In this document: piece by piece, positions 12,081 through 27,355 of the stretch
Layout: the number at the start of each line of letters is the position of its first letter
Position numbering within the stretch: position 1 is the first letter of the stretch
Assembly (NCBI GenBank): GCA_034667545.1
Contig: JAXDJR010000015.1
Location: forward strand, 2,850 to 66,849
Reading direction: 5' to 3'
DNA from: Actinomycetota bacterium
GTDB lineage: Bacteria; Actinomycetota; CADDZG01; WHSQ01
Length of the DNA: 64,000 nt
Program-made: the position numbers and the translations under genes
The notes under the pieces: model-generated
Seen by the model: only the letters and a program-made list of their open reading frames with translations
The model's database searches: none
Told to the model about the DNA's origin: nothing

Positions 12081-12899
12081 ATGATCGATACCCAGGTCCT
12101 TCGCCGGGCGCGGTTCCGAAGCAAGATCTTGCGACGCCCCACGGTTTGGGCCAGGCACCGTGGGATACAGCGACACGATGCGATCTTGGCGAGCTATCCG
12201 CGATCGGGCACTACGTGGATGCGATTCCTCCTCTCTCAGGCCTTGTCGGGCCAATCCTCCGAGTTCAAAGCGATCAGAGGAATCGTTCCGTACGTGGGCC
12301 GGCACAGGCACGCGCTATCGATCCTGCCCGGAGGCGGCAAGCTTATGTACAGCCACGATCTGCTTAGCAAAGACGTCACCGACAGGGCCATCTACGTGGT
12401 GAGGGACGCGCGCGATGTTGCCCTTTCGGAATTCAACTGGCAGAAGCGCATCGGGGTCTACGAAGGCGAGCTCGATCCGTTCTTAAGAGACTTCGTGTCG
12501 GGTCGGGGAAGCCCGTTCGGTTCGTGGGGGGCTCATGTCGACGGCTGGTTTGACGCCGATCGGATCGCCGATGATCGTCTGAAGGTTGTGAAGTTCGAAG
12601 ACCTCAAGAAGGACGCGCCCGGCGTTCTGGCATCCGTACTCTCGTTCCTGCGCGTGACGGTGCCCGAGGCTGAGATCGCCCAAGTGGTGGAGAGCAATTC
12701 GGTCGAGATGATGCGTCAGAAAGAGGATCGCGCGCCAGAGGGCTCCTTCAAGAAGCGAGTGGTCAAACGGAATGTTCGCTTCGTGAATGCGGGGTCCGTG
12801 GGTAAATGGCAGAGAAACCTGAACCCCACCCAAGAACAGCTCATCGAAGAAGCCTTCGGATCGCAATTGCAGCGGCTCGGCTATGCGCTTCACTCGTAG
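12081..12899 (+). CDS. PAPS-dependent sulfotransferase (Sulfotransfer_1-like)
   Basis: 5'-PSB loop YPRSGTTWMRFLL and 3'-PB motif YVVRDARDVALSEF. Confidence 0.85.
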   Translation: MIDTQVLRRARFRSKILRRPTVWARHRGIQRHDAILASYPRSGTTWMRFLLSQALSGQSSEFKAIRGIVPYVGRHRHALSILPGGGKLMYSHDLLSKDVTDRAIYVVRDARDVALSEFNWQKRIGVYEGELDPFLRDFVSGRGSPFGSWGAHVDGWFDADRIADDRLKVVKFEDLKKDAPGVLASVLSFLRVTVPEAEIAQVVESNSVEMMRQKEDRAPEGSFKKRVVKRNVRFVNAGSVGKWQRNLNPTQEQLIEEAFGSQLQRLGYALHS

Positions 12900-12910
12900 C
12901 GCCCGTATGG

Positions 12911-13528
12911 ATGACCACTAGCTCCTCGGCGGGCCGAGTGATTGCGGTACTCGGGCCCGACGGCAGTGGGAAGTCGACGTTCGCCGATGCTCTTGTCGCG
13001 GGGCCTCTCAACCGAGAGACCATCCTTCGCTTGCATCACAGGCCGGGGGCGGTCGTTTCCAAGAGCCCGAGCGAGGCCCCCGTTACAGAGCCCCATGCCG
13101 GCGACCCCTACCCCCGGACCCTTGCCCTAGCCAAGCTCGTATTCCTCTTCCTCGACTTCCAGATCGGGTGGTGGACCCGGATCAAACCATTCGTACGGCG
13201 GGGGGGATGGGTTGTCTGGGAGCGGCCTTGGTGGGACATCTCCATCGACCCCACCCGCTACCGGCTGCAAGGTTCGGAGCGCGCCGCGCGCGTGCTGGGT
13301 GCTGCGTTGCCGGTTCCCGATCTAGTCATCGTGCTCGAGGCGCCCGTCGACGTGCTCCTCGCGCGCAAGCGCGAAGTCTCGGAGGCCGAACTGGAGAGGC
13401 AAACGCACGAGTTACACCACGTCGTGCCGGCAAAGGTCCGAACGGTGTTCCTGGACTCTCGCGAGCCCATACCCACCCTGCTGCAACAAGCGACGGAAGA
13501 GCTGGAGAGCCTTCGGAGCGAGGATTGA
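12911..13528 (+). CDS. Thymidylate-kinase-like P-loop kinase
   Basis: N-terminal Walker A VLGPDGSGKST. The later blocks VVWERPWWDISI and PDLVIVLEAPVDVLLARKRE resemble the dTMP-kinase/nucleotide-kinase fold. ATG 12911 lies 12 nt after the sulfotransferase stop. Confidence 0.7.
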   Translation: MTTSSSAGRVIAVLGPDGSGKSTFADALVAGPLNRETILRLHHRPGAVVSKSPSEAPVTEPHAGDPYPRTLALAKLVFLFLDFQIGWWTRIKPFVRRGGWVVWERPWWDISIDPTRYRLQGSERAARVLGAALPVPDLVIVLEAPVDVLLARKREVSEAELERQTHELHHVVPAKVRTVFLDSREPIPTLLQQATEELESLRSED

Positions 13529-13614
13529 GAGGCAAGACGCGATGGGCCCCCATCCCTCCAGCGTCATCGCGATGGCTGCTGCCGACGACGCCGCGCCGGG
13601 CCGCCACCAATAGC

Positions 13615-14478
13615 GTGCACATCTATCACCCCGTGACGATCAAAGGACTCTTGGGATGGGAAGCCGCGCGTGCGGTTGCGTCGGTGGGCGGGTTCAGATT
13701 GCTTCCCGGCCGCGGCGCAGTCCCTGCGGAAGTGACCGAGCTCCTCCGGGCCAACGGGCTGGCATACCGATCGCTTGCCGTGGCCCGGGCCAACCACCCT
13801 TCCCGATTCCTTGCGCTGCTACTGGGCGAATCCTTGGCCTGTACAGGGGTAGCCAAGATGGCATTCGACGACAAGGGACGTCACGCCCTAGCCAGGGAGG
13901 CGCAAGCGATCGAGGCAGCAACAGCCGTGCTGCCTGCGCCCGTGCGGCCGCCTCTCGTTCGTGCTGCAGCCGATGGATTGCTCCTGCTGGAGCCGGTGGC
14001 GTGGTTGCCGCGCATCACCTCGTGGCGTCTTCCCGGAGAAGTCGCTTATGGATTGGGGGTGTACTCGAGGATGAAGGGAGCCGGTGGCCAGGGTGCCACC
14101 GCAGCCCACGGTGACTTTGCTCCGTGGAACCTCCTGCGGACCGAGGGTGGATGGGTGTTGCTGGATTGGGAGCATGCGTCCGAGTCCAAACCTCCTTTCT
14201 TCGACCTGTGGCACTACTTCATGCAAGCTCATTCGCTACTGGGACGTCCCAACGCGCGAGCACTCGTGGACGGCGTGAGGAAGGGGGACGGCTGGGTTGG
14301 GATCGCTCTGGCGCAATATGCGCGCGGCAGTCAGAGGTCTCCCGCGGAGGCAGTCGATTATTTCGATGACTACATCAGGGCAAGCGCCGAACAACTCGCG
14401 GGAAGGAGCCAGCGGGAACAGCACGGGCTGACGGCGCGAACCGAACTACAGCGTCAGATCACACGTGGACAAGAATGA
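13615..14478 (+). CDS. Aminoglycoside-phosphotransferase (APH)/choline-kinase-like phosphotransferase
   Basis: Catalytic loop HGDFAPWNLL, metal-binding LLDWEHA, and a candidate beta3 lysine in GVAKMAF. The start is uncertain (GTG 13615 chosen). The upstream part of the 436-aa track ORF overlaps the previous gene. Confidence 0.7.
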   Translation: MHIYHPVTIKGLLGWEAARAVASVGGFRLLPGRGAVPAEVTELLRANGLAYRSLAVARANHPSRFLALLLGESLACTGVAKMAFDDKGRHALAREAQAIEAATAVLPAPVRPPLVRAAADGLLLLEPVAWLPRITSWRLPGEVAYGLGVYSRMKGAGGQGATAAHGDFAPWNLLRTEGGWVLLDWEHASESKPPFFDLWHYFMQAHSLLGRPNARALVDGVRKGDGWVGIALAQYARGSQRSPAEAVDYFDDYIRASAEQLAGRSQREQHGLTARTELQRQITRGQE

Positions 14479-14649: not shown

Positions 14650-16212
14650 GTGGACGAAACCCCGGGAGTAGAAGACCTAACGCAGGAATCCGCCGCCGAT
14701 GTCGCGACTCTGGCCAAAGGCGGGGCCCTGCAGATGGTTGGTCGCGTCAGCTCTCGCATCCTTGGCTTCGCGTTCATCGCCGTTGCAGTACGGATCTTGG
14801 GGACCAGCAGATATGGGCTGTTCCGAGAGGTCACGCAGGTCCTGTTGATCGCCGCCGCGCTGGCCCCCGGTGGGTTCCAGTTCGCAGCCGTTCGATTCAT
14901 CGCCCGAGCACGCGCGTTGCACCGGCCGGGGGCCGTGCGAGGGTCGGCGACCGTCGCGGTATGGGGCGGGGCAACTGTCTCCACCTTGGTCTTTATCGGC
15001 CTGCTCATATTGGCTCAGCCGATCGCGGATCACTTTGCATCAGGCGCCACGAAGCAAACGGACTTGGCGCATCTCTTGCGGCTGGGGGCACTGTTCGTGC
15101 CGCTCTACTCGATGACTCTGGTGCTCCTTTACTGCACGCAGGGTTACAGAACGCTGGTTCCGACCACGACGGTGAACGATGTGGGATTGCCGGCGGCGCG
15201 CTTCGCCCTGGGAACCATCGCGATCCTGGTAGGGCTCGAGGTTGCGGGATTGGTGGTTGCCCTCGACGTGTCGGCGGCACTGGCTCTGCTCGGAGCGTTG
15301 TGGTTCTACAGAAAGCTCCTCACCGAGGAGGAGAAAGTGGCGACGCCGGAGCGCGAAGTGGGGCCGATCGTGAGATTCGCTCTCCTGTTGGGGGCCTCCA
15401 ACCTATTCAGCACCCAATCGCTGGGGCTCGGCATCATCCTGCTCGGGATCTATTCGACCGATCGCAACGTCGGTTTGTTCGCGATCGCCCTCGCATTGCA
15501 AGCAGCGGGCGGTGTCTTTCTGCAAAGTCTGGTCGGGATCTGGGCTCCAGTCGTGACCAAGGTTTACGAAGAGGGGGACATCGCGCGCTTGCAGTCTCTT
15601 TACCAAGCGATCACGCGATGGATCGTGACGCTGGCCTTCCCCGTATACGCAGCGTTGATGGTGCTCCCGGGCTTCTTCGGTCGTTTGCTGGCCGGTCACA
15701 ATGGAGCCGACGCCGCTCCCCTGATCGTGGTTCTTGCGCTTGGAAATATCTTTTACGCCGGGACGGGACCCTCGGGCCACATCCTGAACATGACGGGGCG
15801 ACCTCGCGTCACGCTCATCAACTCGATCACGGCCGTCATCCTCTACATCATTCTGGGCGCGATCCTGGTGCCGCGCTATGGGGCGATAGCCATGGCAGGA
15901 GTCGACGCCGGAATCACCGCGGCGATCAACCTCACCGTTGTGTTGGAGGGACGCATCCTCGTCGGCGTCCACCCCTTTGGGAAGTCCTTCCTCAAACCGT
16001 TGGGCGCAACGGTGGTCTTTGCCCTATTCCTGTTGTTGTGGAGAACCGTCCTTGGCACGGGACTCGCCGTCGAGGGGGCCGGGTTGGTCGTCGGGGTGAT
16101 CATCTACCTGGGGATCCTGGCGAAGCTGGGGATGGACCCAGAGGAACGGTACGTGTTTGGGCGGATCAAACAGCGGATCCCCTTCCTCGCCCGGCGAGGC
16201 AGAGGTCGCTGA
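14650..16212 (+). CDS. wzx: Oligosaccharide/polysaccharide flippase (MOP superfamily, Wzx-like)
   Basis: 520-aa protein with about 12-14 TM helices. The N-terminal LAKGGALQMVGRVSSRILGFAFIAVAVRILGTSRYGLF is typical of polysaccharide biosynthesis (Wzx) proteins. Confidence 0.85.
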   Translation: MDETPGVEDLTQESAADVATLAKGGALQMVGRVSSRILGFAFIAVAVRILGTSRYGLFREVTQVLLIAAALAPGGFQFAAVRFIARARALHRPGAVRGSATVAVWGGATVSTLVFIGLLILAQPIADHFASGATKQTDLAHLLRLGALFVPLYSMTLVLLYCTQGYRTLVPTTTVNDVGLPAARFALGTIAILVGLEVAGLVVALDVSAALALLGALWFYRKLLTEEEKVATPEREVGPIVRFALLLGASNLFSTQSLGLGIILLGIYSTDRNVGLFAIALALQAAGGVFLQSLVGIWAPVVTKVYEEGDIARLQSLYQAITRWIVTLAFPVYAALMVLPGFFGRLLAGHNGADAAPLIVVLALGNIFYAGTGPSGHILNMTGRPRVTLINSITAVILYIILGAILVPRYGAIAMAGVDAGITAAINLTVVLEGRILVGVHPFGKSFLKPLGATVVFALFLLLWRTVLGTGLAVEGAGLVVGVIIYLGILAKLGMDPEERYVFGRIKQRIPFLARRGRGR

Positions 16213-16422
16213 TCGAGCGGGCCTCCTTGGCACGTCCACCCGTCAGGGATGAGATGGCCCCGTCCGAGAAAATGCCCCCTAGCGCGCCCCACGCAGCCCT
16301 TGATACCCTCATAGAAGGCATCACCAGCAAGTTGCAAAGGTTCAGGTGGATTGACGTTTGAGTAGCGGGCACGTACGGATCTGCTCGTGGACACGTACTG
16401 ACGACTACTTCTAGGCGGCTGA

Positions 16423-17925
16423 ATGCTTAGTTCCTCACAAGGGTCCTGGTACCGAAGGACCTTGCCGGGCGTTAATCCGGCGCGGGCCGCGGGAAACGCG
16501 GTGATCGCGATGACGGCATTGGGAGCCGGTGTCGGCATCGCTCTGGGAAGTAAGTGGGGGCTGGCGATCGCCGGAATCTCCCTCTTGTTCGCAGCGGCGA
16601 GCGTGGGCTTGTTCCAACTCACCATCCCTCGGTACGCGTTCGGGTACATGGCTATCGAACTACCGGCGATATTCATCTTGATAGCAAGTCTTGGTCTTCG
16701 GGCACGCACAGCGGAGGACCTCGCGGCCAATCCGTTGGACTTCGTCGGCTTGCTGCGCCTTGCCAGCACGGGAATCGCTTTCATGCTGGGGGCCATCGCG
16801 TGCATCTCCGCGACGCGCGATACGACCGAGACCGTGACGAACAGGCCGCTGCGCATCTATATCTGTTACGCGCTCGTGGCCTCGATCGGGATCTTTGCCT
16901 CCGTGAGCCCGGCCCTCACGGGTTACCGCGCCTTCGAGGTGATCGCCGCGATCGTGATGATCGCAGGCGCTTACCGAACCGCCGGGAAAGAAGCTTTGCT
17001 TCGCCTGGAAGGGTTGCTCTATTGGTGGATACTGATCCTCGTTGGCACCGTCTGGGTTGGAGTGGCAGCGTTCCCAGCCCTGACCGTCCAGCACATCAAC
17101 AGTCCGATCCCATACCAGATCCAAGGCGTCTATCCGGGGGTCACCTCCAACACGCTCGGCGAGCTGGCCGTCCTGCTGATCTTTTGGTCTGTGGGCCGGT
17201 TGCTGGCACCCGGGGTCGAGAGGGGCCCCAGGCGTCCGGTTGCGTGGGCGGTCGCGGCCTTTGGATTCATCACGTTGATGGGGGCCCAGTATCGAACTGG
17301 TTACGCGGCCGTGATGCTTGGATTTGCGATATTGCTGTTCCTGCGCGGCCGCAAAGTCCTTGCCGGGTTCGGCGTCATCGTGGTGGCTGTCGGGACCATC
17401 ATCGGATCGAGAGTCGCGACGCAAGCTGCGCCGCTTCTCTTGCGGGGGCAGAATAGCTCGCAGGTCAGCAACTTGAATGGACGTCTGAACTGGTGGGAGC
17501 TCGCCATCCCGATCTGGAAGAAATCCCCCATCATCGGAGGTGGCCTTCGTACCGCCAGCCGGCTGCTCGTCTTGGGACAGTCAGGCTTCCAGAACACCAG
17601 CACCGTCCACAGCACGTGGGTGGAAGCGCTCGTCGGGACGGGAGTGCTTGGAACTGCCGCCCTTGCCATCTTTCTGATGATTACGATGCGCCGGGCTTTC
17701 CTGACTGCGCTGCGACCGTACGGAAGGATCGTCCCCCTTCTCGCCCTCAGCACGCTTGCGGTGAGGAGCTTCACTGGGGATACCTTCGAGAGCGGTGGTC
17801 TTTACTGCTTGCTCACGCTGGTGTTCGTGATGGGTCTACGGGATCAGTACTTCGTTCGACCGAGGGCGTCAACCCGCATCAGCTCATCCGGTCACGCCGA
17901 GCGTGTTCCCGTGGGAGTCGACTAA
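16423..17925 (+). CDS. wzy: O-antigen ligase/polymerase family membrane protein (Wzy-like)
   Basis: 500-aa polytopic membrane protein. A Wzy_C-like block (STVHSTWVEALVGTGVLGTAALAIFL) follows a large loop. Confidence 0.8.
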   Translation: MLSSSQGSWYRRTLPGVNPARAAGNAVIAMTALGAGVGIALGSKWGLAIAGISLLFAAASVGLFQLTIPRYAFGYMAIELPAIFILIASLGLRARTAEDLAANPLDFVGLLRLASTGIAFMLGAIACISATRDTTETVTNRPLRIYICYALVASIGIFASVSPALTGYRAFEVIAAIVMIAGAYRTAGKEALLRLEGLLYWWILILVGTVWVGVAAFPALTVQHINSPIPYQIQGVYPGVTSNTLGELAVLLIFWSVGRLLAPGVERGPRRPVAWAVAAFGFITLMGAQYRTGYAAVMLGFAILLFLRGRKVLAGFGVIVVAVGTIIGSRVATQAAPLLLRGQNSSQVSNLNGRLNWWELAIPIWKKSPIIGGGLRTASRLLVLGQSGFQNTSTVHSTWVEALVGTGVLGTAALAIFLMITMRRAFLTALRPYGRIVPLLALSTLAVRSFTGDTFESGGLYCLLTLVFVMGLRDQYFVRPRASTRISSSGHAERVPVGVD

Positions 17926-17936
17926 CCGAGTAAAGA

Positions 17937-18827
17937 TCAGGCGATGTTCCAGCCGTCGAAGTCGTTTCCCAGTAGGACCCGCAGCCGTCGAATGTCCGAT
18001 GAGAACTCTGCTTCCAGTTCGGCGCGCAGAGAATCCGGGATAACCGCCTCGGAAGATTCGTAGACGCTCTGCGCGGGCTTGCCCAACATCTGTTTGACCC
18101 GATTGGGAACCAGGCGAGGGATCTTGACAGTAGAGAACACGCGCTTCTTGAACCAGCGACGGCTGTTCCCTACCCAGGCCGGATAGGCCAAGCGCCGCTC
18201 AGATGTAAAGAACTCCTGCTCCAGCACCTCGGACTTCCAATCAGCGCGCACGCCGAGGAAGGAGTAGACGCGCTCGAGAGTTTGTACTCGAGTCGAGCGC
18301 AAAGCCTCCGAAGTGATGATGAGCATCTGATCGGTGCGGAAATGCGAAAGATATTGATCCAGCTGCATCGCGTACTTGCTGAAGTTGATGTAGTCGGGAT
18401 TCGTTTGGACCGCCTGAGCTAGGGGCGCGGTTTCGGTGCCGAAGGCCACGTTGTGAACGTAGTGAGAGCGAAGGCGATCTATCGGATTGCGCACCACGTA
18501 TATGAGGCGCGCCTCGGGAAGATAGCGCGCGATGAGCTCTGCAGAACCTGAATAGCGGGGAAACTTGGTGTAGCTGGTTGAGGCCTCACCTACTGCGGCT
18601 ACCCCGGGACCGGCGTCGGCAAAGAGGCGCTGATACCAGGCGAAACCTCGCTCCCAGTTGATGCCGGCGGTGAAGAAGTCCAGCTCTTTGATGTCGGGCA
18701 TGAAGACCTGCGGATGCGACCGCAGATATTCGTAGAGGCTCGTGGTTCCCGACTTCTGAGCGCCAATAACGAGAAAGTCGGGAAGCCGGAGCTTGCCTGT
18801 AGGTGTTGGATAGTCCGAGGGGCTCAC
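17937..18827 (-). CDS. PAPS-dependent sulfotransferase
   Basis: 5'-PSB FLVIGAQKSGTTSLYEYL and 3'-PB YVVRNPIDRLRSHY. The GTG start overlaps the stop of the upstream sulfotransferase (GTGA). Confidence 0.85.
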   Translation of the reverse strand: MSPSDYPTPTGKLRLPDFLVIGAQKSGTTSLYEYLRSHPQVFMPDIKELDFFTAGINWERGFAWYQRLFADAGPGVAAVGEASTSYTKFPRYSGSAELIARYLPEARLIYVVRNPIDRLRSHYVHNVAFGTETAPLAQAVQTNPDYINFSKYAMQLDQYLSHFRTDQMLIITSEALRSTRVQTLERVYSFLGVRADWKSEVLEQEFFTSERRLAYPAWVGNSRRWFKKRVFSTVKIPRLVPNRVKQMLGKPAQSVYESSEAVIPDSLRAELEAEFSSDIRRLRVLLGNDFDGWNIA

Positions 18828-19855
18828 TCAGAACCGTCGCTTGGCGAACTTTCCGACAGAGAGCGGAGATGGTTTCCCGCCTTACGAGTTGCCAGCGAGT
18901 AGCGCAACATCAGCGGCAGCGTCAACGAAGTCACGAGCAGCTTGTCTCGTCCGGGCATCTCGTCCTTCCATCTGTTGTCCTCACGAACCGGCACCTGACC
19001 AAGCCGGAACCGATCTGGGTTGCCGGACACAGTGTGGTTGCCGCCGAGGCTAACCGTGTGATCGTCGGCAAAAGGCAGTTGCGCGCCTGCATCGCCGACC
19101 AGGGATGTGATTGCGCGAACCAACTCACGGGGACGCGAGCAGAAATCGTGGTAATCGATCAGCATCGAGCGATCTGGTCTCTGAGCTCTGCGAACAGCAT
19201 CCGCCGCGAGATTTCGGCGGATCCATTGAAACGCACTGGCCGAGATCCCGGTGGGTGCCATAACCGCAGGCTGGTTGCGGTCCGGGTTGGCTTTCACCTT
19301 CGATTGCGAGTAAGCCATGGCGCGAGGATCACGTACGAGGTGGACGAAGAATGGTTCGACGTTGCGGACCGAGCCCAACAAAGCTGCGTCCCAGGGGCGC
19401 TTGGAAGAATCCACGATGACCGAGGCTCCAGTCACTGCTTTGATCGCCTCATACAGATCGCCCATCAGTGCACCGTGAGCTTGTATCTGTCCGGGAACAT
19501 TGTCCTTAGTTGTCTGATGGAGGAGCTGCCACGTACGCCAAGTCCCCGAGATCTGCCTCTGACGTGCCATGACAGCCCGGGCCGTTGCAGAGGGCTCTGA
19601 GCCGGCAACCTTGTCGAGGACACGGGACCAGATCTCACAACTCTCGAACGACTTCCCACACCCGCAGAATCGTCCTTGGTCGAGCCGCTGCCACAGAAAA
19701 CGAAGCTCTCCCGCGGAAAAGAACCCTGCGACCTCGTTCAGGACGTTGTCCAGCACTGTGCTGCCGCAGCGGGGGGCGCCCATGATGTAAAGCACTGTGA
19801 TCGGCTCATCCCGCGCCGGGGACGCGGCCGAAGCGTGGGGGTTGGGTCCGTCCAT
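18824..19855 (-). CDS. Sulfotransferase family protein (Sulfotransfer_3-like)
   Basis: P-loop-like 5'-PSB LYIMGAPRCGSTVLDNVL and 3'-PB HLVRDPRAMAYS. Confidence 0.8.
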   Translation of the reverse strand: MDGPNPHASAASPARDEPITVLYIMGAPRCGSTVLDNVLNEVAGFFSAGELRFLWQRLDQGRFCGCGKSFESCEIWSRVLDKVAGSEPSATARAVMARQRQISGTWRTWQLLHQTTKDNVPGQIQAHGALMGDLYEAIKAVTGASVIVDSSKRPWDAALLGSVRNVEPFFVHLVRDPRAMAYSQSKVKANPDRNQPAVMAPTGISASAFQWIRRNLAADAVRRAQRPDRSMLIDYHDFCSRPRELVRAITSLVGDAGAQLPFADDHTVSLGGNHTVSGNPDRFRLGQVPVREDNRWKDEMPGRDKLLVTSLTLPLMLRYSLATRKAGNHLRSLSESSPSDGSE

Positions 19856-20101
19856 GTGGCCTTCCTTCGTGTGATCGCTCCTGGAGGAAGCGTCACTCAG
19901 CTTCGCACGCTATCGCGGCGCCTGGCCCCAAACCTACCCACCCTGAGCGTGCGATGGTGCAGGGGCTCGGCGGCCGCGTTCAGCCATCCAGCCCGATAAG
20001 GCAGGGCCCCGGGGGGGCATGGGAATTGCTTGGCACGGCTCCGAGTAGAGTTTGGCTCCTAGAACGATGGGGAGAAAAGCGGTGTCAGAGGCCTCAAGGG
20101 G

Positions 20102-22891
20102 GTGTCGAGGCTACGCGCGCGCCAGTTTGCGGCGCGGATCGTCCGCAGCCCGATGCACAAGTCTCAGTCGCCGAGCCTTTCGAGGCTCGGCCCAACCTCC
20201 GGGAGGCGACAGACCATCGTGATCTACCTCGAGGTCGGGGCACTCATCGTGGTGGTCGCCTTGATCTCTGTGTCCGACCTGATCTATCGGCGGGTGACCA
20301 AATCCGGCCGCCGGCGAGGCCGGGCCTCCGTGCGAGGCGCCCGAGCGGCAGTGCTTCGTTCGCAATCCGGGGGCGGGCCCTCGCCCAGGAGTGCGCCGGC
20401 TCAGCCGTCGGCAAGGACCTCTCCTTCCGTGCCACCGCCCGCTCCAGGAACAAGTGAGTTCGTGCGGGTAAAGCTCCGCTCCGGGCGCATCGTGGAGGGA
20501 TGGAGGGAAGCAGGCACCCTGGAAAGCTCCGGGGGCTTAACGGACGCCTTCGATCTGGATGTCTCCAAGGCGTTCGATCCCAACGGCAACCCCATGAGTT
20601 TTCCCAGCAACTCCTTCATCGTCTTTACCTCCCAGGTCGAGCGTCTGGAAGTCCTCGAATCCTCTTCGGAAAGGAGTTCGAGCCGCGAGGTGGCCGCGGA
20701 ACGCCAGCGAGCCTCTGGGGCCACGACCGCCCCCATCGCGCCCGTGCGTGATTCGGGATCCCAAACTGCACGGAAAGAAGAGGACACAGCGAACCCTGAG
20801 GGGCCGGACACCAGCCCCGCTCCGGACGAGTCATCCGACGGTCTGGGCCGGCTGATCCAACTGCCAGAGCCCGAGGACCTGAACGCTCCAGCAGCAGTGC
20901 TCGCTCCTGTCCCTGAGCCCGCTCCTGAGGGTTCTCAGATCAGGCATATCGAGCCCAAGGCAGCGAGTCCGGAAACCCCCTCAGTGCCCGCTCCGCCCGC
21001 TCCCCATAAGAAGCGGCGAGCCCGCCCCTTGTTATGGGTGGGAGCTATCGCCGCGCTCCTCATCGTGGCCCTGATCGTCGACGGGATGTATACGTTCTTC
21101 GCCCTGTCCAACTCCCTCAACTCGGCGCGGGGTGATCTGCGACGTGGCAGCAACGCTCTCCTCTCGGGCCACTACCAGTCGGCGCGCGCGGAATTTCTAA
21201 AGGCTGCATCCGCTTCCGGGACCGCCGATGGGCTCCAAGGCCATCCTGCGTTCTGGGTGGTGTCCCACCTTCCGCGAGTACACCGGGATGCAGTTGCTCT
21301 AAAGGCCTTGGGTAAGTCCTCGGACCTGTCCTCGCGGGCCGGCCTCGACGCCGTGCAGGCGATTCGAGCGATGGGAGCCCCCGCCCAGGGTTTGGCCGCC
21401 GCTATCTACAGCCATGGTCAGATCAATCTCAACGCCGCTCAGAGAGGCGTGCCCTTCTTCATAGACATCGAGGACAAGCTCAACAAGGCCTATGTCAGCT
21501 TGAGGAGCGCTCCTCAACCGGTCTTCGGGGCAGTGCAGTCGGCCCTGTCGCTCGCCCTGACCAAGGTTTCCGAGGCGAGGGACGCGATTCACAAGACCCG
21601 CAACCTGGTGCAGGCCCTGCCGTCCCTATTCGGACGCGACCAGACTCGCCATTACCTGCTGCTGTTCGACAATCCGAGCATCGCCCGGGGCTCGGGTGGA
21701 CCTATCGACCTGTTCGGCATCCTCACCGCAAAGTCGGGTTCCCTGCGCGTGGGATCGATCCACCCGGTCGACGACCTTGCCGCCACGGCGGCACCGAGAA
21801 CTCTGTCCCCCGCTTGGTTCCGCAAGGCATACGGGCCCGCCGGCGCGTTCGATAGTTGGGACCAGATCACTCGGTCGCCGAGCTTCGACTCCGTTGCGCC
21901 GATCGCCCAGAGCCTGTATCAGTCGGCGACGGGCACGACAGTCGACGGTGTGGTCGAGATGGATCCCGTGGCGCTGGGTCTGATGACACGTGCAGTGGGA
22001 TCAGTCCGACAGCCGGGATACAACGTCTCAGTCAACGCCCGTAACGCAGTGCAGACCCTCACGCACGACGTCTATCTGCACTTCGGAACCGACCAACGTG
22101 GCCGGGAGGAGTGGGTGGCCGGGTTGATCGAACAGGTTTGGAACAGAGTGAGCCGGGGGGACGCAAGCGCTGCCGAGCTGACCACAGCCCTCGGGGATTC
22201 CTCGAGGGGGTCTCACTTCACGATGTACTCGAACAGCCCGTCGGACGAACGAGCCTTGAACCAAGTCGGGGTGGGCGCCACATTCTCGACATTCGAGCCC
22301 AATGTGCAGATGGCCGTCACCAACAACAGCACGCTGTCCAGGCTCGGCTATTACGAGAAGCGAAGCGTGAGCACGAGAGTGCAGCTGACCAGCCGCGGCC
22401 AAGCCTACGTGACCTCAACCTTCCGACTCAGCAACACCGCTCCCAAAGGCGTCGCCAAGGTGCTGGTGCACAACCTTCAGTCCGCCCAGGACCGCTCCGA
22501 CCTGAGCTTCATCCTCCCCACCCACGCGAAGGTGCAGGAAGTCTCGTTGGCAGGCAAGTCCCAGCGCTACGACCTTGGGATCGAGGGGACGAATCCTCGC
22601 TTCACGCTGCCGCTGTCGGTGGCCCCGGGGAGCACGGTCCGAGTGGTCTGTTCCTACGTCATCCCACACGCCTTCAAGCTGACCGGCGCAGGAGGCGTGT
22701 TCCGATTCGCAACAGTGCCGCAGGCTGCAGCCAAACCGGATGCAACCTCCGTCACCGTGATCCCACCCGGCGGGCTCGAAGTCGTCAAGGGGGGATCGGT
22801 CGGAGGTGAGGTGGACGGATCGTCTTACGTAGCGAGCGACACTGCCGGGGGTCCCCTGACGGTGGCAGTCAAGTTGGCGCCACCCCCGTAA
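20102..22891 (+). CDS. DUF4012 domain membrane protein with long N-terminal extension
   Basis: The C-terminal ~600 aa after the TM helix LLWVGAIAALLIVALIVDGMYTFFAL contains HYLLLFDNPSIARGSGGPIDLFG, resembling the DUF4012 core seen in actinobacterial EPS loci. The N-terminal ~300 aa is Pro/Ser-rich with one extra TM helix. Start is uncertain. Confidence 0.8.
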   Translation: MSRLRARQFAARIVRSPMHKSQSPSLSRLGPTSGRRQTIVIYLEVGALIVVVALISVSDLIYRRVTKSGRRRGRASVRGARAAVLRSQSGGGPSPRSAPAQPSARTSPSVPPPAPGTSEFVRVKLRSGRIVEGWREAGTLESSGGLTDAFDLDVSKAFDPNGNPMSFPSNSFIVFTSQVERLEVLESSSERSSSREVAAERQRASGATTAPIAPVRDSGSQTARKEEDTANPEGPDTSPAPDESSDGLGRLIQLPEPEDLNAPAAVLAPVPEPAPEGSQIRHIEPKAASPETPSVPAPPAPHKKRRARPLLWVGAIAALLIVALIVDGMYTFFALSNSLNSARGDLRRGSNALLSGHYQSARAEFLKAASASGTADGLQGHPAFWVVSHLPRVHRDAVALKALGKSSDLSSRAGLDAVQAIRAMGAPAQGLAAAIYSHGQINLNAAQRGVPFFIDIEDKLNKAYVSLRSAPQPVFGAVQSALSLALTKVSEARDAIHKTRNLVQALPSLFGRDQTRHYLLLFDNPSIARGSGGPIDLFGILTAKSGSLRVGSIHPVDDLAATAAPRTLSPAWFRKAYGPAGAFDSWDQITRSPSFDSVAPIAQSLYQSATGTTVDGVVEMDPVALGLMTRAVGSVRQPGYNVSVNARNAVQTLTHDVYLHFGTDQRGREEWVAGLIEQVWNRVSRGDASAAELTTALGDSSRGSHFTMYSNSPSDERALNQVGVGATFSTFEPNVQMAVTNNSTLSRLGYYEKRSVSTRVQLTSRGQAYVTSTFRLSNTAPKGVAKVLVHNLQSAQDRSDLSFILPTHAKVQEVSLAGKSQRYDLGIEGTNPRFTLPLSVAPGSTVRVVCSYVIPHAFKLTGAGGVFRFATVPQAAAKPDATSVTVIPPGGLEVVKGGSVGGEVDGSSYVASDTAGGPLTVAVKLAPPP

Positions 22892-23014: not shown

Positions 23015-23872
23015 CTAGTCGCGTCCATGCGCCGCCAACTGTTTGACGAGCAGGAAAACGAAGCGCGGATTACGGTACAGGTACCTCTTCCACAACCTGC
23101 GAGGCTCGGAGCAGAGACGGAAGAGCCACTCGAGCCCCATCCGCTGCATGATGCTCGGAGCCTGCTTCTTCACGCCGGCAAGGAAGTCAAAAGCGGCGCC
23201 GACCCCGACCATCACCGCAGGAACCTTCCCGCGGCGAGCTGCCATCCAAAGCTCCTGCTTAGGCGTACCGAGACCTACGAATACGATCCCCGCGCCCGAG
23301 TCGATGATCTCCTGATCCACTTGGCGATCTTCCTCTTCGGTCGGGGCCCTGAACGGCGGAGCGAACCGATACACCACCTGGAGTTTCGGAAAACGAGCTT
23401 TTAGGTTGGCGATGAAGGACTCGAGCACGTCCGGAGTGCCGCCGTAGAAACCCACAGGAACTCCAGCCTCGGCCGCGCGCTCACACAGGATCGGGGTGAG
23501 GTCGGGCCCGTACACCCGGGTGGCGTCCCGTAGACCGAGCAGCTTGAGACTCCAGACAAGCGGCATACCGTCAGAGGTGACGAGATCGGCCAGGTTCATG
23601 ATCTGCTGGAAGGCTTCACTGGCGCGTGACTCCATCACGTTGTTGACCGAGGCCACGCAGACGTAACGAGACTCGCGTTGCTTGCCCCACGCGACGATGC
23701 GAGAGGCGGCATCTTCATAGTTGGTGCGATCCACACGCATCCCAGCGATGTGACGAGACTCGAGAGGCCGCGCCTCGGAGACGACGACCGGCGATCGTAG
23801 GTCTGGGCTCGACGGTCCCAGATCGGGTGAGGTGCTCAAGATCAGTACGCGCCCTTCCCGCCCAGGACGCAT
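23015..23872 (-). CDS. WecB/TagA/CpsF family glycosyltransferase (GT26)
   Basis: VCVASVNNVMES...DGMPLVW...GVPVGFYGGTPDVLESFIANLKARFPKLQVV...GLGTPKQELWM are typical of the family. An alternative TTG start at 23839 lies 2 nt after the upstream stop. Confidence 0.85.
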   Translation of the reverse strand: MRPGREGRVLILSTSPDLGPSSPDLRSPVVVSEARPLESRHIAGMRVDRTNYEDAASRIVAWGKQRESRYVCVASVNNVMESRASEAFQQIMNLADLVTSDGMPLVWSLKLLGLRDATRVYGPDLTPILCERAAEAGVPVGFYGGTPDVLESFIANLKARFPKLQVVYRFAPPFRAPTEEEDRQVDQEIIDSGAGIVFVGLGTPKQELWMAARRGKVPAVMVGVGAAFDFLAGVKKQAPSIMQRMGLEWLFRLCSEPRRLWKRYLYRNPRFVFLLVKQLAAHGRD

Positions 23873-25332
23873 CCAAGTGTCTTGAAGAGGATGTAAAGGT
23901 CCAGGGACAACGACCAGTTCTCGATGTAGAAGGCATCCATACGAACCGCCTCTTCAGCGGCGACATCGCTCCGGCCGTTGGTTTGCCACCAACCGGTGAT
24001 GCCCGAGCGGATCTGGTGCCGAGCTTCCATGAGCTGGGGATTGGCCGCCACCTGCTCAGCCGGCAGAGGCCGAGGCCCCACCAGGCTCATGTCGCCGATG
24101 ATGACGTTCAAAAGCTGAGGGATCTCGTCCAGGCTGAAGCGCCGCAGGAACCGGCCGACTGTGGTCAGGCGAGGGTCCCTCTGGAGCTTGAAGAATGCGT
24201 CGGTTGTCTTCACAGACATCTTGTCGGCATTCGGGACCATTGTTCTGAACTTGCACATGGTGAAGAGACGTCCATCCTTGGTCACACGCTTATGACGGAA
24301 CAGGACCGGGCCTCTCGACGACACCGCGATCGCAGCGGCTATCACCAAGCAGATCGGCAGCAGCAGCAGAGACAGCAGCGTGGCGGCAAACACGTCGAAG
24401 ACTCTCTTCACGAACGCTTGGGGGCCGGCGAGTCGCACGGGCCGAAGGGAGAGCGTGAGGATCGATCCGAGCGGCTGCACCGAAACGCGTGAGGTCAAGA
24501 TGTTATTCAGGTTCGCCGTGACACGCACGGCCACTCCCTCTTGGCGGGCTGCCTGGACCGCCAGCACCATCTCCGAAGAACCCACCGCGGTGGAAGCGAC
24601 GAAGATGCAATCAGCGGAATACTCACGGACTACCTCGCGCAGATTCTCGATCGTCCCGATGACCGGAAGCCCGTCTGGTGACGCCGTGGGACCGGCGACG
24701 CTAACGAAGCCCAGTGGCGAGAATCCAAGGCCTCGCTCTTGAAGAAGATGTGCGAGGCGGCCCGCCTCATGGTTCGTGCCCACGACGACCGTGCGCAACG
24801 CCAAGCGGCCGGTTGCCCGCAGCTTTGCGAGGCGCCAACGCCACGCCCGCCGGGTCAGAAGCTCGCCGAAGACCGCGAAACCCCAAAGAAGCGCCACCCA
24901 CTCGCGAGAGAACGCAGTTTGGGACCAGAAACTAGTAGCGATTATCCCGAGGATGCCGACGCTTGCGGCTCCCACGATCCGTTGCAGTTCGTCGACCGCT
25001 GAGATGCGGTGCGGCGAGTACAGAGAAAAGACGCGGAAGATCAACACCCACAGCAACGGTGCGGTCACGCCGAGCGTGATGTAAGGACCGTGGATCGTGG
25101 CTTGAAAGCGAACCAGATAGGCAGCGATGAACGCTGCCGACAAAACCAGGGCATCGGAGATGACTAGCCCTGCGGTGACCCGCCGATACATCCGGCGGAC
25201 ATCTATGCCGGAGCTGGAGGAATCCTCGGGCGCATCAAGCTGGATGGCAAGGGGGTCGGACTCGACGTCCTGAACGATCCGAAGGCCGTCATTGACCGTA
25301 GTCGAGTAAGCCTCGCCGGGGGTCTCTATCAT
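23842..25332 (-). CDS. Polyprenyl-phosphate sugar phosphotransferase (priming glycosyltransferase, WbaP/CpsE-like)
   Basis: N-terminal TM bundle, central Rossmann-like domain, and a C-terminal bacterial sugar transferase domain (KRVFDVFAATLLSLLLLP...CKFRTMV...DPRLTTVGRFLRRFSLDEIPQLLNVIIGDMSLVGPRP). Confidence 0.9.
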   Translation of the reverse strand: MIETPGEAYSTTVNDGLRIVQDVESDPLAIQLDAPEDSSSSGIDVRRMYRRVTAGLVISDALVLSAAFIAAYLVRFQATIHGPYITLGVTAPLLWVLIFRVFSLYSPHRISAVDELQRIVGAASVGILGIIATSFWSQTAFSREWVALLWGFAVFGELLTRRAWRWRLAKLRATGRLALRTVVVGTNHEAGRLAHLLQERGLGFSPLGFVSVAGPTASPDGLPVIGTIENLREVVREYSADCIFVASTAVGSSEMVLAVQAARQEGVAVRVTANLNNILTSRVSVQPLGSILTLSLRPVRLAGPQAFVKRVFDVFAATLLSLLLLPICLVIAAAIAVSSRGPVLFRHKRVTKDGRLFTMCKFRTMVPNADKMSVKTTDAFFKLQRDPRLTTVGRFLRRFSLDEIPQLLNVIIGDMSLVGPRPLPAEQVAANPQLMEARHQIRSGITGWWQTNGRSDVAAEEAVRMDAFYIENWSLSLDLYILFKTLGCVLGGKGAY

Positions 25333-26018
25333 CGGCGCGCCGACCCGTTAGTGAGGATGCCGTTCTCCAGCAATCCGTTCTGCATAGCTATGGCGGCGGC
25401 TTCCAGCCTCGAGTGAACGTTCAATTTCCCGAGGATGTTTTGGATATGGGTGCGCGCCGTCTGAGGGCTGATGACCAAGGCTCGTGCGATGGCTTCATTG
25501 TCCGCCCCCTCCGCCAACAGTGCGAGCACTTCTTTTTCGCGCTGAGTGAGACGAAGGATCCTCTCGAAGGCGGCATCTTCCTGCTTGCGTTGCCGCATGA
25601 GGGTGGTGAGGAGCGGGCCAAGCATGTGCCCAGGTACAACCGTTTCGCCACGCTGGAGTGCCCGGACTGCGCCGAGAAGGCCCTGAAGGGGCGATTCCTT
25701 GGTGACGAAACCCTCTGCGCCTGCGCGAGCTGCCCGAAGGACTGCAGAGTGCCCACTGCTTTCTACCAGCAGGAGGACGCGGCACTGGGGAAGTTGGCGC
25801 TTGATCGCGCCGACGAGTCCGTCATCGCCATCTGCTATCTCGACGTCGAGGACGACGAGATCGGGACGCGTATCTGCTAGTTGAGACAGGACCTCCGGCC
25901 CCGTGGAGGCCTCGCCAACTACCTCGAAGTCGTTCTCGCCCTGCAGGACGGCTCGCACCGCTTCGCGGAAGAGAGCGTGATCTTCTGCAAGGAATATCGA
26001 AAATTTTGCCTTGTCCAC
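25329..26018 (-). CDS. LuxR/NarL-family response regulator
   Basis: Receiver (IFLAEDHALFREAV...DLVVLDVEI) plus LuxR HTH (LTQREKEVLALLAEGADNEAIARALVISPQTARTHIQNILGKL). The stop overlaps the start of the priming transferase (ATGA 25329-25332). Confidence 0.9.
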   Translation of the reverse strand: MDKAKFSIFLAEDHALFREAVRAVLQGENDFEVVGEASTGPEVLSQLADTRPDLVVLDVEIADGDDGLVGAIKRQLPQCRVLLLVESSGHSAVLRAARAGAEGFVTKESPLQGLLGAVRALQRGETVVPGHMLGPLLTTLMRQRKQEDAAFERILRLTQREKEVLALLAEGADNEAIARALVISPQTARTHIQNILGKLNVHSRLEAAAIAMQNGLLENGILTNGSARR

Positions 26019-26134
26019 AAACCACTCCCAAACGGGTAAAGCAGCTCAAGCAAGCTGCTCATTCAAGTTAGGCGCTCGACTTGCCGATAGCACTGCCCCG
26101 ACGTCGTATTCGGCCTACTCCAAACGTACGACGT

Positions 26135-27256: not shown

Positions 27257-27355
27257 CCTCTCCCCGCTCTCTCCGGGCTTGTGCTCTCTAAAGGTGTCCC
27301 CCTTCAGAAGGTGACCACTCACAATAAGCTGGGCGCCATCGAGAAGAATGCTGAG

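What the first reader, a model, noticed from the sequence alone, without database searches (positions are those of the whole stretch)
17937..19855. Two translationally coupled sulfotransferases plus a third at 12081-12899, with no PAPS-synthesis genes nearby
Each of the three ORFs carries both PAPS-binding signatures. The 5'-PSB loops are YPRSGTTW, AQKSGTTS and APRCGSTV. The 3'-PB motifs are VVRDARDVALS, VVRNPIDRLRS and LVRDPRAMAYS. Outside these motifs the sequences differ clearly, so they are not recent duplicates and probably sulfate different positions or sugars. The pair at 17937-19855 overlaps by GTGA and is transcribed divergently from DUF4012. No sat/cysDN/cysC (APS/PAPS synthesis) gene is in the window, so the donor must come from elsewhere in the genome.
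Basis: partly seen in the sequence, partly recalled or inferred. Interest (0 to 1): 0.7.

Follow-up and report, generated by a model that had tools for sequence, protein, structure and literature searches.

The report
Three sulfotransferases in actinobacterial polysaccharide locus
An uncultured soil actinobacterium carries a standard surface-polysaccharide gene cluster that also encodes three unrelated, apparently intact sulfate-adding enzymes, so it probably makes a sulfated slime or capsule, which is still rarely documented in bacteria but has published precedents.

Summary
ORFs 12081-12899(+), 17937-18827(-) and 18824-19855(-) all pass Pfam sulfotransferase cut-offs, carry the quoted motifs, and the last two overlap by GTGA. 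They belong to three lineages with no significant pairwise similarity: ST-A is SULT/StaL-like, ST-B is heparan-sulfate-OST/XssA-like, and ST-C is a TPST/CurM-like clade. PAPS-binding and catalytic-base residues are conserved across orthologues. The genes sit in a Wzx/Wzy polysaccharide locus (about 4.5-25.3 kb) of an Actinomycetota MAG, and the locus is syntenic in related metagenome contigs. No PAPS-synthesis gene is in the window by Pfam, motif scan with positive control, or tblastn; the P-loop kinase after ST-A is not an APS kinase. Each ST has one reciprocal homologue in the Sinorhizobium meliloti pSymB nodP2-smb21248 cluster, which is linked to nodP2Q2/cysQ. ST-B matches XssA of the synechan cluster. 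The conserved pair is ST-A plus ST-C (always present, fused in P0132); ST-B is accessory. Verdict: a probable sulfated-exopolysaccharide locus, a new member of a known kind. Side finding: the ST-C clade (more than 4,000 clusters, none characterised to my knowledge) has an invariant CxCG-x6-C plus His motif.

The parts
12081..12899 (+). ST-A: SULT/StaL-like sulfotransferase, first gene of the operon ST-A > kinase-like > APH-like > Wzx > Wzy
   Evidence: Pfam Sulfotransfer_1 7e-29. PDB sequence hits are cytosolic SULTs at 1e-16 and StaL/Teg12/Teg14. R41, H92, R108, S116, G238 and W243 are invariant in 24 orthologues. No hydrophobic segment.
12195..12218 (+). ST-A 5'-PSB loop YPRSGTTW (Arg41 replaces the SULT Lys)
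   Evidence: aligned to TYPKSGTTW of SULT1A; Arg in 24/24 orthologues
12396..12428 (+). ST-A 3'-PB motif VVRDARDVALS (R108, S116)
12911..13528 (+). P-loop dTMP-kinase-like protein, always downstream of ST-A; not an APS kinase
   Evidence: Weak Thymidylate_kin match. Only Walker A aligns to the NodQ APS-kinase domain. Full-length PDB profile hits are dTMP/CMP/dN kinases. Fused to the APH-like protein in L020 and L032.
13525..14478 (+). APH/choline-kinase-like phosphotransferase; its TTG start overlaps the preceding stop (TTGA)
   Evidence: Pfam APH, weak; start and overlap
14650..16212 (+). Wzx-type flippase
   Evidence: Pfam Polysacc_synt 3e-18; 13 hydrophobic segments
16423..17925 (+). Wzy-type polymerase
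   Evidence: Pfam Wzy_C 2.5e-14; 10 hydrophobic segments
17937..18827 (-). ST-B: heparan-sulfate-OST/NDST-like, XssA-like sulfotransferase (accessory in the clade)
   Evidence: Pfam. PDB hits are 3RNL 5e-25, 3-OST-3 4e-16 and NDST1. XssA match at 35% identity, E=8e-39. K25 and E48 present; R113 and S121 invariant. Absent in L004/L005.
18824..18827 (-). GTGA overlap of the ST-C stop and the ST-B start
   Evidence: conserved in L003, not in L006
18824..19855 (-). ST-C: member of a large uncharacterised TPST/CurM-ST-like sulfotransferase clade
   Evidence: Pfam Sulfotransfer_3 1e-10. Profile versus PDB: OLS ST 1.9e-13, CurM ST 1.4e-9. AF2 pLDDT 89.6; the top 18 Foldseek hits are all sulfotransferases. 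4,255 cluster representatives at E<=1e-30.
19754..19777 (-). ST-C 5'-PSB loop APRCGSTV (R29)
19637..19666 (-). ST-C clade-specific CGCGKSFESC motif (C64, C66, C73)
   Evidence: Invariant in 88/88 sequences, together with H274. The segment does not align to CurM/OLS ST.
19307..19339 (-). ST-C 3'-PB motif LVRDPRAMAYS (R175, S183)
20102..22891 (+). DUF4012 membrane protein, divergent from ST-C
   Evidence: Pfam DUF4012 5e-27; syntenic in relatives
23015..23872 (-). WecG/TagA-family glycosyltransferase
   Evidence: Pfam 8e-60
23842..25332 (-). Priming polyprenyl-phosphate sugar-phosphate transferase
   Evidence: Pfam Bac_transf 2e-64 plus CoA_binding_3
25329..27322 (-). LuxR-type response regulator (25329-26018) and PAS histidine kinase (26135-27322) flanking the locus
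   Evidence: syntenic in L003 and L004
4481..11911 (-). Remaining locus genes: GT4 (4481-5563), NAD-epimerase (5604-6602), GT4 (6800-7963), Wzz plus BY-kinase (8049-9737), ATP-grasp-like (10024-11100), conserved unknown (11093-11911)
   Evidence: synteny

Best explanation
The window holds a Wzx/Wzy-dependent exopolysaccharide or capsule locus (about 4.5-25.3 kb) of an uncultured Actinomycetota bacterium. Its lipid-linked repeat unit is probably sulfated at up to three positions before export. Inferred mechanism: the priming transferase, WecG and the GT4 enzymes build an oligosaccharide on undecaprenyl phosphate at the cytoplasmic face. Three soluble cytoplasmic PAPS-dependent sulfotransferases of different lineages (ST-A, ST-B, ST-C) then each transfer sulfate to a different hydroxyl or amino group. 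Wzx flips the unit, Wzy polymerises it, and the Wzz/BY-kinase controls chain length. PAPS is supplied by genes encoded elsewhere. Shown here: domain identities, conserved catalytic and PAPS-binding residues, the sulfotransferase fold of ST-C, synteny, and linkage of homologues to PAPS genes and to glycan enzymes in other genomes. Inferred: PAPS as donor, the glycan as acceptor, the timing of sulfation before flipping, and distinct regiospecificities.
For: Domain calls exceed the Pfam cut-offs. Locus composition is a priming transferase, WecG, two GT4s, Wzx, Wzy and a Wzz/BY-kinase. ST-A aligns to SULT1A with the catalytic His and the 3'-PB Arg/Ser, invariant in 24 orthologues. ST-B aligns to 3-OST-3 and NDST with the PSB Lys and the Glu base. 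In ST-C, R29, E50, R175 and S183 are invariant or nearly so in 88 sequences, and its confident model matches only sulfotransferases at the top. None of the STs has a hydrophobic segment. The locus is syntenic in related contigs at 60-87% ST-C identity. ST-A-type and ST-C-type domains are fused in P0132, next to Wzy and GT4. ST-C domains are also fused to GT2 and to a polysaccharide deacetylase. Each ST has one reciprocal homologue in the S. meliloti nodP2-smb21248 cluster, which adjoins cysQ-nodQ-cysD and is proposed to make a sulfated polysaccharide (PMC5498481). ST-B, WecG, the priming transferase, the PCP and the HK/RR have counterparts in the synechan xss cluster, whose product is chemically shown to be sulfated (PMC8205485).
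Against: No biochemical data exist for any member of the ST-A or ST-C clades. The products of the S. meliloti and Actinoplanes clusters have not been shown chemically to be sulfated (PMC5498481, PMC13390465). ST-A deviates from canonical SULTs (Arg for the PSB Lys; N-x-G for RKG). The nearest solved relatives of ST-A and ST-C act on small molecules, acyl-ACP or protein tyrosine, not glycans. ST-C homologues at about 40% identity in Corallococcus lie in a non-glycan, secondary-metabolism-like context. A PAPS route in this genome is unverified.
Confidence: 0.75

Rival explanations
1. One or more of the sulfotransferases act on a non-glycan acceptor, such as a glycolipid, a secreted peptide or protein tyrosine, or a small metabolite, and are merely co-located with the polysaccharide genes.
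For: The closest solved relatives of ST-A are cytosolic SULTs and the glycopeptide-antibiotic enzymes StaL/Teg. Those of ST-C are TPST1/2 and the CurM/OLS acyl-ACP sulfotransferases. ST-C homologues in Corallococcus and Micromonospora are not in Wzx/Wzy loci.
Against: ST-A heads the operon that contains Wzx and Wzy, and this order is conserved at 60-87% ST-C identity. ST-C domains are fused to GT2 and to a polysaccharide deacetylase, and the ST-A/ST-C fusion lies beside Wzy and GT4. All three have counterparts inside polysaccharide clusters of S. meliloti, and ST-B has one in Synechocystis.
Confidence: 0.15
2. At least one of the three, most plausibly ST-A or the accessory ST-B, is a catalytically inactive or non-PAPS-using paralogue with a structural or regulatory role.
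For: ST-A has Arg instead of the SULT Lys and lacks the R-K of the RKG 3'-phosphate motif. ST-B has Asp where 3-OSTs have His, and it is dispensable in some relatives. In synechan one of the two STs (XssE) had little phenotype (PMC8205485).
Against: The deviating residues are family-wide and invariant (Arg41 in 24/24), as are His92, Arg108 and Ser116, which indicates purifying selection on an active site. By my own knowledge, not tested here, Arg occupies this position in active TPST and CurM-type enzymes; one search shows the same RSGST loop in CurM and OLS ST. ST-B keeps K25, E48, R113 and S121.
Confidence: 0.08
3. The conserved P-loop kinase-like and APH-like pair downstream of ST-A is a cryptic local donor-synthesis system, for example an APS-kinase analogue, so PAPS synthesis is in fact encoded nearby.
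For: It is a roughly 205-aa P-loop kinase with a GPDGSGKST Walker A resembling CysC's GLSGSGKST. It is always immediately downstream of ST-A and is fused to the second kinase in L020 and L032.
Against: Only 20 Walker-A columns align with the NodQ APS-kinase domain. Full-length PDB profile matches are dTMP/CMP/dN kinases, and no APS kinase is among the 60 listed. The LDGDxxR and KGLY motifs are absent. No ATP sulfurylase is present to make APS. The pair is more simply explained as a sugar or polymer phosphorylation module.
Confidence: 0.03

Closest known systems
Synechan (xss) cluster of Synechocystis sp. PCC 6803 plasmid pSYSM (PMC8205485)
   Same: It is a Wzx/Wzy/PCP polysaccharide cluster with a priming sugar transferase, a WecG-family GT, GT4s, sulfotransferases of distinct subfamilies and an adjacent histidine kinase/response regulator, and it has no PAPS genes in the cluster. 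ST-B is homologous to XssA (35% identity, E=8e-39). WecG, the priming transferase, the PCP and the HK/RR also match.
   Different: It has two STs, not three. ST-A and ST-C have no xss counterpart, and XssE has no clear counterpart here. The host is a diderm cyanobacterium and the cluster is on a plasmid. The xss cluster has no DUF4012 gene and no homologue of the P-loop kinase, APH-like or ATP-grasp proteins. The synechan product is chemically verified as sulfated; this one is not.
Sinorhizobium meliloti pSymB nodP2-smb21248 cluster with SMb21237, SMb21243 and SMb21249 (PMC5498481)
   Same: It has three sulfotransferases that correspond one-to-one and reciprocally to ST-C, ST-B and ST-A (E=2.6e-34, 7e-32 and 1.6e-14). 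It also has GT4s, a sugar transferase, a Wzy-type protein, a Wzz/tyrosine kinase and an ATP-grasp protein. Assignment of the SMb numbers to the three annotated genes is inferred from gene order.
   Different: Identity is only 26-33%. The host is an alphaproteobacterium and the locus is on a megaplasmid. It is physically linked to PAPS synthesis and recycling genes (cysD/nodP2, nodQ2, cysQ), which the window lacks. The ST-A homologue there keeps Lys (YPKSGRTW). The product is uncharacterised.
Actinoplanes missouriensis wps-1 cluster (PMC13390465)
   Same: It is an actinomycete Wzx/Wzy/Wzz cluster with two sulfotransferases from different families, one of heparan-sulfate type like ST-B, plus a protein-kinase-like protein. 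Both ST genes are needed for a phenotype, and a sulfated EPS is proposed.
   Different: It has two STs, plus a methyltransferase and a GH26 that are absent here. Sulfation is not chemically verified.
Solved sulfotransferases: cytosolic SULT1/2 and StaL/Teg12 (for ST-A); 3RNL, heparan-sulfate 3-OST-3 and NDST1 (for ST-B); TPST1/2 and CurM/OLS ST (for ST-C)
   Same: They share the PAPS-binding 5'-PSB and 3'-PB motifs and the position of the catalytic base, His or Glu.
   Different: Identities are low (Foldseek 14-18% for ST-C; TM 0.45-0.59). ST-A has Arg for Lys and N-x-G for RKG. ST-B lacks the His/Asp of the 3-OSTs. ST-C has an extra segment of about 60 residues with an invariant Cys triad. 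The acceptors of the solved enzymes differ (small molecules, heparan sulfate, tyrosine, acyl-ACP).

Membership tests
PAPS-dependent sulfotransferase superfamily (Pfam PF00685/PF13469) | Profile match above the curated threshold | tested here: met
   ST-A 101 bits, ST-B 71 and 70 bits, ST-C 42.7 bits, against cut-offs of 22 and 27
PAPS-dependent sulfotransferase superfamily (Pfam PF00685/PF13469) | 5'-phosphosulfate-binding loop (P-K/R-S/x-G-T/S-T) | tested here: met
   YPRSGTTW, AQKSGTTS and APRCGSTV. Conserved in orthologues: R41 in 24/24; K/R25 in 14/14; R29 in 87/88.
PAPS-dependent sulfotransferase superfamily (Pfam PF00685/PF13469) | 3'-phosphate-binding Arg...Ser motif | tested here: met
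   R108/S116 in 24/24; R113/S121 in 14/14; R175 in 88/88 and S183 in 87/88
PAPS-dependent sulfotransferase superfamily (Pfam PF00685/PF13469) | Catalytic base (His or Glu) after the PSB helix | tested here: met
   ST-A H92 aligns to the THLP His of SULT1A, 24/24. ST-B E48 aligns to the 3-OST-3 Glu, 12/14. ST-C E50 aligns to the PEL of CurM/OLS ST, 87/88.
PAPS-dependent sulfotransferase superfamily (Pfam PF00685/PF13469) | Sulfotransferase fold | tested here: met
   ST-C AF2 model has pLDDT 89.6, and the top 18 PDB matches are all sulfotransferases. ST-A and ST-B rest on significant sequence matches to solved STs.
PAPS-dependent sulfotransferase superfamily (Pfam PF00685/PF13469) | PAPS binding and sulfuryl-transfer activity | not testable with these tools
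   Needs protein biochemistry
Cytosolic SULT family (for ST-A) | Lys in the PSB loop and the R-K-G 3'-phosphate motif | tested here: not met
   Arg41 replaces Lys in 24/24. FVNAGSVGKW stands where SULTs have FMRKGMAGDW; only F, G and W are conserved. ST-A is SULT-like but a separate bacterial clade.
Heparan-sulfate 3-OST/NDST-like, XssA-type (for ST-B) | PSB Lys, Glu base, 3'-PB Arg/Ser, and significant similarity to XssA | tested here: met
   K25, E48, R113 and S121; XssA E=8e-39
Heparan-sulfate 3-OST/NDST-like, XssA-type (for ST-B) | The His and Asp following the Glu in 3-OSTs (ExHxxD) | tested here: not met
   ST-B has KELDFFT where 3-OST-3 has AEPHFFD. Asp50 stands at the His position, and that column is variable.
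TPST / CurM-OLS 'activating' sulfotransferases (for ST-C) | Closest sequence and fold relatives, with a PSB Arg and a following Glu | tested here: met
   OLS ST 1.9e-13 and CurM ST 1.4e-9; TPST2 and CurM ST are the top Foldseek hits
TPST / CurM-OLS 'activating' sulfotransferases (for ST-C) | Context: a PKS module (CurM/OLS) or a protein or peptide substrate (TPST) | tested here: not met
   ST-C is a standalone gene in a Wzx/Wzy locus. It has a clade-specific Cys-triad insertion, and TM is only 0.45-0.59.
Wzx/Wzy-dependent (sulfated) exopolysaccharide cluster | Priming transferase, glycosyltransferases, Wzx, Wzy and a PCP/BY-kinase in one locus | tested here: met
   hydropathy of Wzx and Wzy
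Wzx/Wzy-dependent (sulfated) exopolysaccharide cluster | Sulfotransferase genes embedded in the locus and conserved with it | tested here: met
   Synteny in L003-L007; co-occurrence table; fusions
Wzx/Wzy-dependent (sulfated) exopolysaccharide cluster | Sulfate present in the polymer | not testable with these tools
   Uncultured organism; needs chemistry
Translationally coupled gene pair (ST-C/ST-B) | Stop/start overlap, conserved among relatives | tested here: inconclusive
   The GTGA overlap is present here and in L003. L006 has a 61-nt gap, and ST-B is absent in L004/L005.
APS kinase (CysC), for the P-loop kinase at 12911-13528 | Full-length similarity to APS kinase with LDGDxxR and KGLYxKA motifs | tested here: not met
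   Only Walker A aligns; the PDB profile hits dTMP/CMP/dN kinases; motifs absent

The most novel reading that the evidence does not exclude
ST-A plus ST-C (with ST-B as an add-on) form an ancient, horizontally shared multi-sulfation cassette found in soil Actinomycetota and rhizobial polysaccharide loci, producing densely sulfated, glycosaminoglycan-like polymers outside cyanobacteria and animals. ST-C represents a very large (more than 4,000 clusters at 50% identity), biochemically uncharacterised sulfotransferase clade defined by an invariant CxCG-x6-C plus His site, possibly a structural Zn site. Given its fusions to polysaccharide deacetylase and GT2 domains, it may include bacterial N- or O-sulfotransferases that work like NDST.
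Probability: 0.25. Interest if true: 0.55.

Novelty: new member of a known kind. Interest (0 to 1): 0.35.

Why it matters
Two recent papers state that bacterial sulfated polysaccharides are essentially confined to cyanobacteria (PMC8205485, PMC13390465), although sulfated capsule clusters from Vibrio and Cobetia have also been published (PMC11641403, PMC11766843). This locus and its many syntenic relatives in soil MAGs suggest that uncultured Actinomycetota commonly encode multiply sulfated exopolysaccharides. That bears on soil aggregation, cation and water binding, phage and predator resistance, and the search for microbial sources of heparin-like polymers. The one-to-one match to the three S. 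meliloti pSymB sulfotransferases offers a genetically tractable proxy for work on the three enzyme types. The natural ST-A/ST-C, GT2/ST-C and deacetylase/ST-C fusions give testable hints about partners and acceptors for a large uncharacterised clade.

Tried and rejected
(1) Hidden APS kinase. The P-loop kinase-like gene after ST-A was compared with the NodQ APS-kinase domain and with PDB as a single sequence and as a profile. Only Walker A is shared, so this was rejected.

(2) Linked PAPS genes in relatives. A six-frame motif scan of the window plus 86 loci (1.39 Mb) gave three hits, in L040, L042 and L044. Pfam and translation showed a PASTA Ser/Thr kinase, a 497-aa ORF with no Pfam hit lying antisense to a UDP-glucose dehydrogenase gene, and a frame full of stop codons. 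All three were false.

(3) NCBIfam gave no hit for any of the three STs.

(4) The promoter and terminator scan of 11800-20300 gave counts below the shuffled expectation and was uninformative.

(5) Extending beyond the window to reach the rest of the 74-kb contig. There was no record for the right-end protein, and the left side added only about 1.3 kb holding an ABC ATPase.

(6) The window's own species is not among the GTDB representatives found; the best match is 49% identical. The rest of the genome, and therefore its PAPS route, could not be examined.

(7) ST-A and ST-C were searched against the synechan cluster and have no counterpart there.

Full report
OBSERVATION. The three ORFs are present as described: ST-A at 12081-12899 (+, 272 aa), ST-B at 17937-18827 (-, 296 aa) and ST-C at 18824-19855 (-, 343 aa). 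All six quoted motif strings translate at the expected coordinates. Pfam places all three above the curated thresholds. ST-A matches Sulfotransfer_1 at 7e-29, ST-B matches Sulfotransfer_1 at 1e-19 and Sulfotransfer_3 at 5e-19, and ST-C matches Sulfotransfer_3 at 1e-10. NCBIfam has no model for any of them. The ST-C stop and the ST-B start overlap as GTGA. ST-C is divergent from a DUF4012 gene across 246 nt. The three proteins show no significant pairwise similarity (E=0.29-11).

WHAT EACH ENZYME IS. ST-A is most similar to cytosolic SULT1/2 enzymes (about 1e-16) and to the bacterial glycopeptide sulfotransferases StaL, Teg12 and Teg14. In the alignment its PSB loop, a His at the THLP position, and the Arg/Ser of the 3'-PB motif are in register. 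Across 24 orthologues recovered from related loci (down to 38% identity), R41, H92, R108, S116, G238 and W243 are invariant. The Lys-to-Arg change and the N-x-G in place of RKG are traits of the whole clade, not decay in this gene.

ST-B matches the bacterial structure 3RNL (5e-25), heparan-sulfate 3-OST-3 (4e-16) and NDST1. It has K25, E48 at the catalytic-Glu position, R113 and S121. It lacks the His/Asp that follow the Glu in 3-OSTs.

ST-C was the weakest call. A 30-sequence family profile hits the OLS and CurM sulfotransferase domains (1.9e-13, 1.4e-9) and TPSTs weakly. An AlphaFold model (pLDDT 89.6, pTM 0.88) has only sulfotransferases among its top 18 PDB matches, led by TPST2, CurM ST, TPST1 and OLS ST, with TM 0.45-0.59. 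In 88 family sequences R29, G31, T33, E50, R175, R178 and S183 are invariant or nearly so. None of the three has a hydrophobic segment, while Wzx and Wzy show 13 and 10. The STs are therefore soluble cytoplasmic enzymes, which is where PAPS is available (PAPS availability is background knowledge).

CONTEXT. Pfam scans of about 50 ORFs show that 4.5-25.3 kb is a Wzx/Wzy-type polysaccharide locus. On the minus strand it holds GT4, an NAD-epimerase, GT4, a Wzz plus BY-kinase, an ATP-grasp-like protein and a conserved unknown. On the plus strand it holds ST-A, a P-loop kinase-like protein, an APH-like kinase, Wzx and Wzy. Then come ST-B and ST-C (-), DUF4012 (+), and WecG, the priming Bac_transf enzyme, a LuxR-type response regulator and a PAS histidine kinase (-). 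Next is tRNA-Asn, and the remainder is housekeeping (rpoD, dnaG, PPDK, uppS, recO, era, dnaJ, hrcA, lepA, leuS and others).

The source is an NCBI 'MAG: Actinomycetota bacterium'. The locus is syntenic in JGI and Logan metagenome contigs with 87%, 67% and 61% ST-C identity. In those relatives ST-A and ST-C are always present. ST-B is absent in L004/L005, and in L006 it is separated from ST-C by 61 nt. The GTGA coupling is therefore real here and in L003 but is not a conserved property. A beta-helix protein is inserted next to DUF4012 in some relatives.

DONOR SUPPLY. No ATP-sulfurylase, APS-kinase, CysD/CysN or CysQ family appears in the window by Pfam. A six-frame motif scan found nothing in the window, and the same scan recovers all four expected motifs in a genuine NodQ. 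tblastn with NodQ and CysQ finds only the LepA GTPase.

The one candidate for a hidden donor gene is the P-loop kinase that always follows ST-A. It shares only its Walker A with an APS-kinase domain, and its profile matches dTMP/CMP/dN kinases over the full length. It is not CysC.

None of the 86 related loci has linked PAPS genes by motif scan or by tblastn, and the synechan cluster has none by motif scan. Unlinked donor genes are therefore the rule.

RELATED SYSTEMS. A search of plasmid records showed that all three STs have their most numerous hits on Sinorhizobium pSymB, and within a single locus. In S. meliloti ml47 that region holds three annotated sulfotransferases, GT4s, a sugar transferase, a Wzy-type protein, a Wzz/kinase and an ATP-grasp protein. 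Immediately beside them lie cysQ, nodQ and cysD. The correspondence is one-to-one and reciprocal: ST-A 1.6e-14, ST-B 7e-32, ST-C 2.6e-34. This is the published nodP2-smb21248 cluster. Its three sulfotransferases (SMb21237, SMb21243, SMb21249) are co-activated with nodP2Q2 by Clr, and the authors proposed that it makes a sulfated surface polysaccharide, still uncharacterised (PMC5498481).

ST-B is also homologous to XssA of the synechan cluster (E=8e-39). WecG, the priming transferase, the PCP and the HK/RR have counterparts there too. Synechan is chemically shown to be sulfated (PMC8205485). An actinomycete precedent also exists: the Actinoplanes wps-1 cluster has two sulfotransferases of different families and a kinase-like protein (PMC13390465). 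I could not test sequence homology to it.

THE ST-C CLADE. The clade is large: 4,255 representatives of 50%-identity clusters at E<=1e-30. Its members are mostly from Actinomycetota MAGs, but it also occurs in cultured Micromonospora, Nocardia, Rubrobacter marinus, Myxococcus and Corallococcus.

Natural fusions tie it to glycan chemistry and to ST-A. P0125 is GT2 plus ST-C. P0148 is a polysaccharide deacetylase plus ST-C, an NDST-like layout. P0132 is an ST-A-type domain (42% identical to ST-A, E=9e-68, retaining YPRSGTTW) plus ST-C, encoded next to Wzy and GT4.

On the other side, homologues at about 40% identity in Corallococcus lie among a split transketolase, a LysX-type ATP-grasp, an amino-acid kinase and M20 peptidase genes. 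Acceptors probably vary across the clade.

The clade carries an invariant C64-x-C66-G-x6-C73 triad and H274 (88/88, including the S. meliloti protein at 26% identity). The motif sits in a segment that does not align to CurM/OLS ST. A metal or disulfide site is plausible but untested.

VERDICT. The refinement is that ST-A plus ST-C, not ST-B plus ST-C, is the conserved functional pair. The most likely function is multi-site, PAPS-dependent sulfation of a lipid-linked repeat unit in a Wzx/Wzy exopolysaccharide pathway (confidence about 0.75). This is a new member of a known kind. The closest precedents are the synechan, S. meliloti pSymB and Actinoplanes wps-1 clusters. Interest is moderate (0.35). 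It extends probable sulfated-EPS capacity to uncultured soil Actinomycetota and points to a large uncharacterised sulfotransferase clade, but a specialist would not be surprised by the mechanism.

Noticed in passing
window 19637-19666 (ST-C residues 64-73) and 19034-19036 (H274): An invariant CxCG-x6-C triad plus an invariant His are present in all 88 ST-C-family sequences examined, including S. meliloti, Micromonospora and myxobacterial members. The motif is absent from the aligned CurM/OLS ST and TPST regions. It may be a Zn or disulfide site in a sulfotransferase clade of more than 4,000 clusters with no characterised member that I know of.
   Followed up: partly
window 12911-13528 and 13525-14478; L020 and L032: A dTMP-kinase-like P-loop protein and an APH/choline-kinase-like protein always follow ST-A. 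They overlap by TTGA here and are fused into one ORF in L020 and L032. The pair is not an APS kinase; it may phosphorylate a sugar or the polymer. Actinoplanes WpsI, with a kinase-like domain at residues 175-329, might be the same fused protein.
   Followed up: partly
P0132 / L091 85-1935; P0125; P0148; P0121, P0122: Natural fusions involve the ST-C domain: ST-A-type plus ST-C (next to Wzy and GT4), GT2 plus ST-C, polysaccharide deacetylase plus ST-C (an NDST-like layout), and tandem ST-C plus ST-C.
   Followed up: partly
L057 5036-15439 (Corallococcus coralloides); L035 (Micromonospora sp.): ST-C homologues at about 40% identity sit in non-Wzx/Wzy contexts. In Corallococcus the neighbours are a split transketolase, a LysX-type ATP-grasp, an amino-acid kinase, an M20 peptidase and an SDR, which looks like amino-group-carrier-protein secondary metabolism. 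In Micromonospora they are a DegT aminotransferase and a methyltransferase.
   Followed up: partly
window ~988-1464 (-), from the gene calls of L089/L090: A 158-aa BldD-like_C/HTH regulator lies between an ABC-transporter pair (150-980 and its upstream ATPase) and the histidine kinase/LuxR pair at 1660-3884, just upstream of the polysaccharide locus. It may provide developmental or c-di-GMP-type control of the EPS.
   Followed up: no
L004 7666-9669; L006 3166-4191: Relatives carry a beta-helix (plus Laminin_G_3) protein between DUF4012 and ST-C that is absent from the window. It may be a polysaccharide lyase or depolymerase for the same polymer.
   Followed up: no
window 10024-11911 (-): An ATP-grasp-like protein (weak ATPgrasp_Ter match) and an overlapping 272-aa protein with no Pfam hit are conserved with the locus. 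They co-occur with ST-A and ST-C in distant MAGs (L020, L021, L032), and an ATP-grasp protein is also annotated in the S. meliloti cluster. They may attach an amino acid or similar group to a uronic acid.
   Followed up: no
window 17925-17937: The convergent Wzy and ST-B genes end only 11 nt apart, and no terminator-like hairpin was detected there, so the transcripts may overlap.
   Followed up: partly
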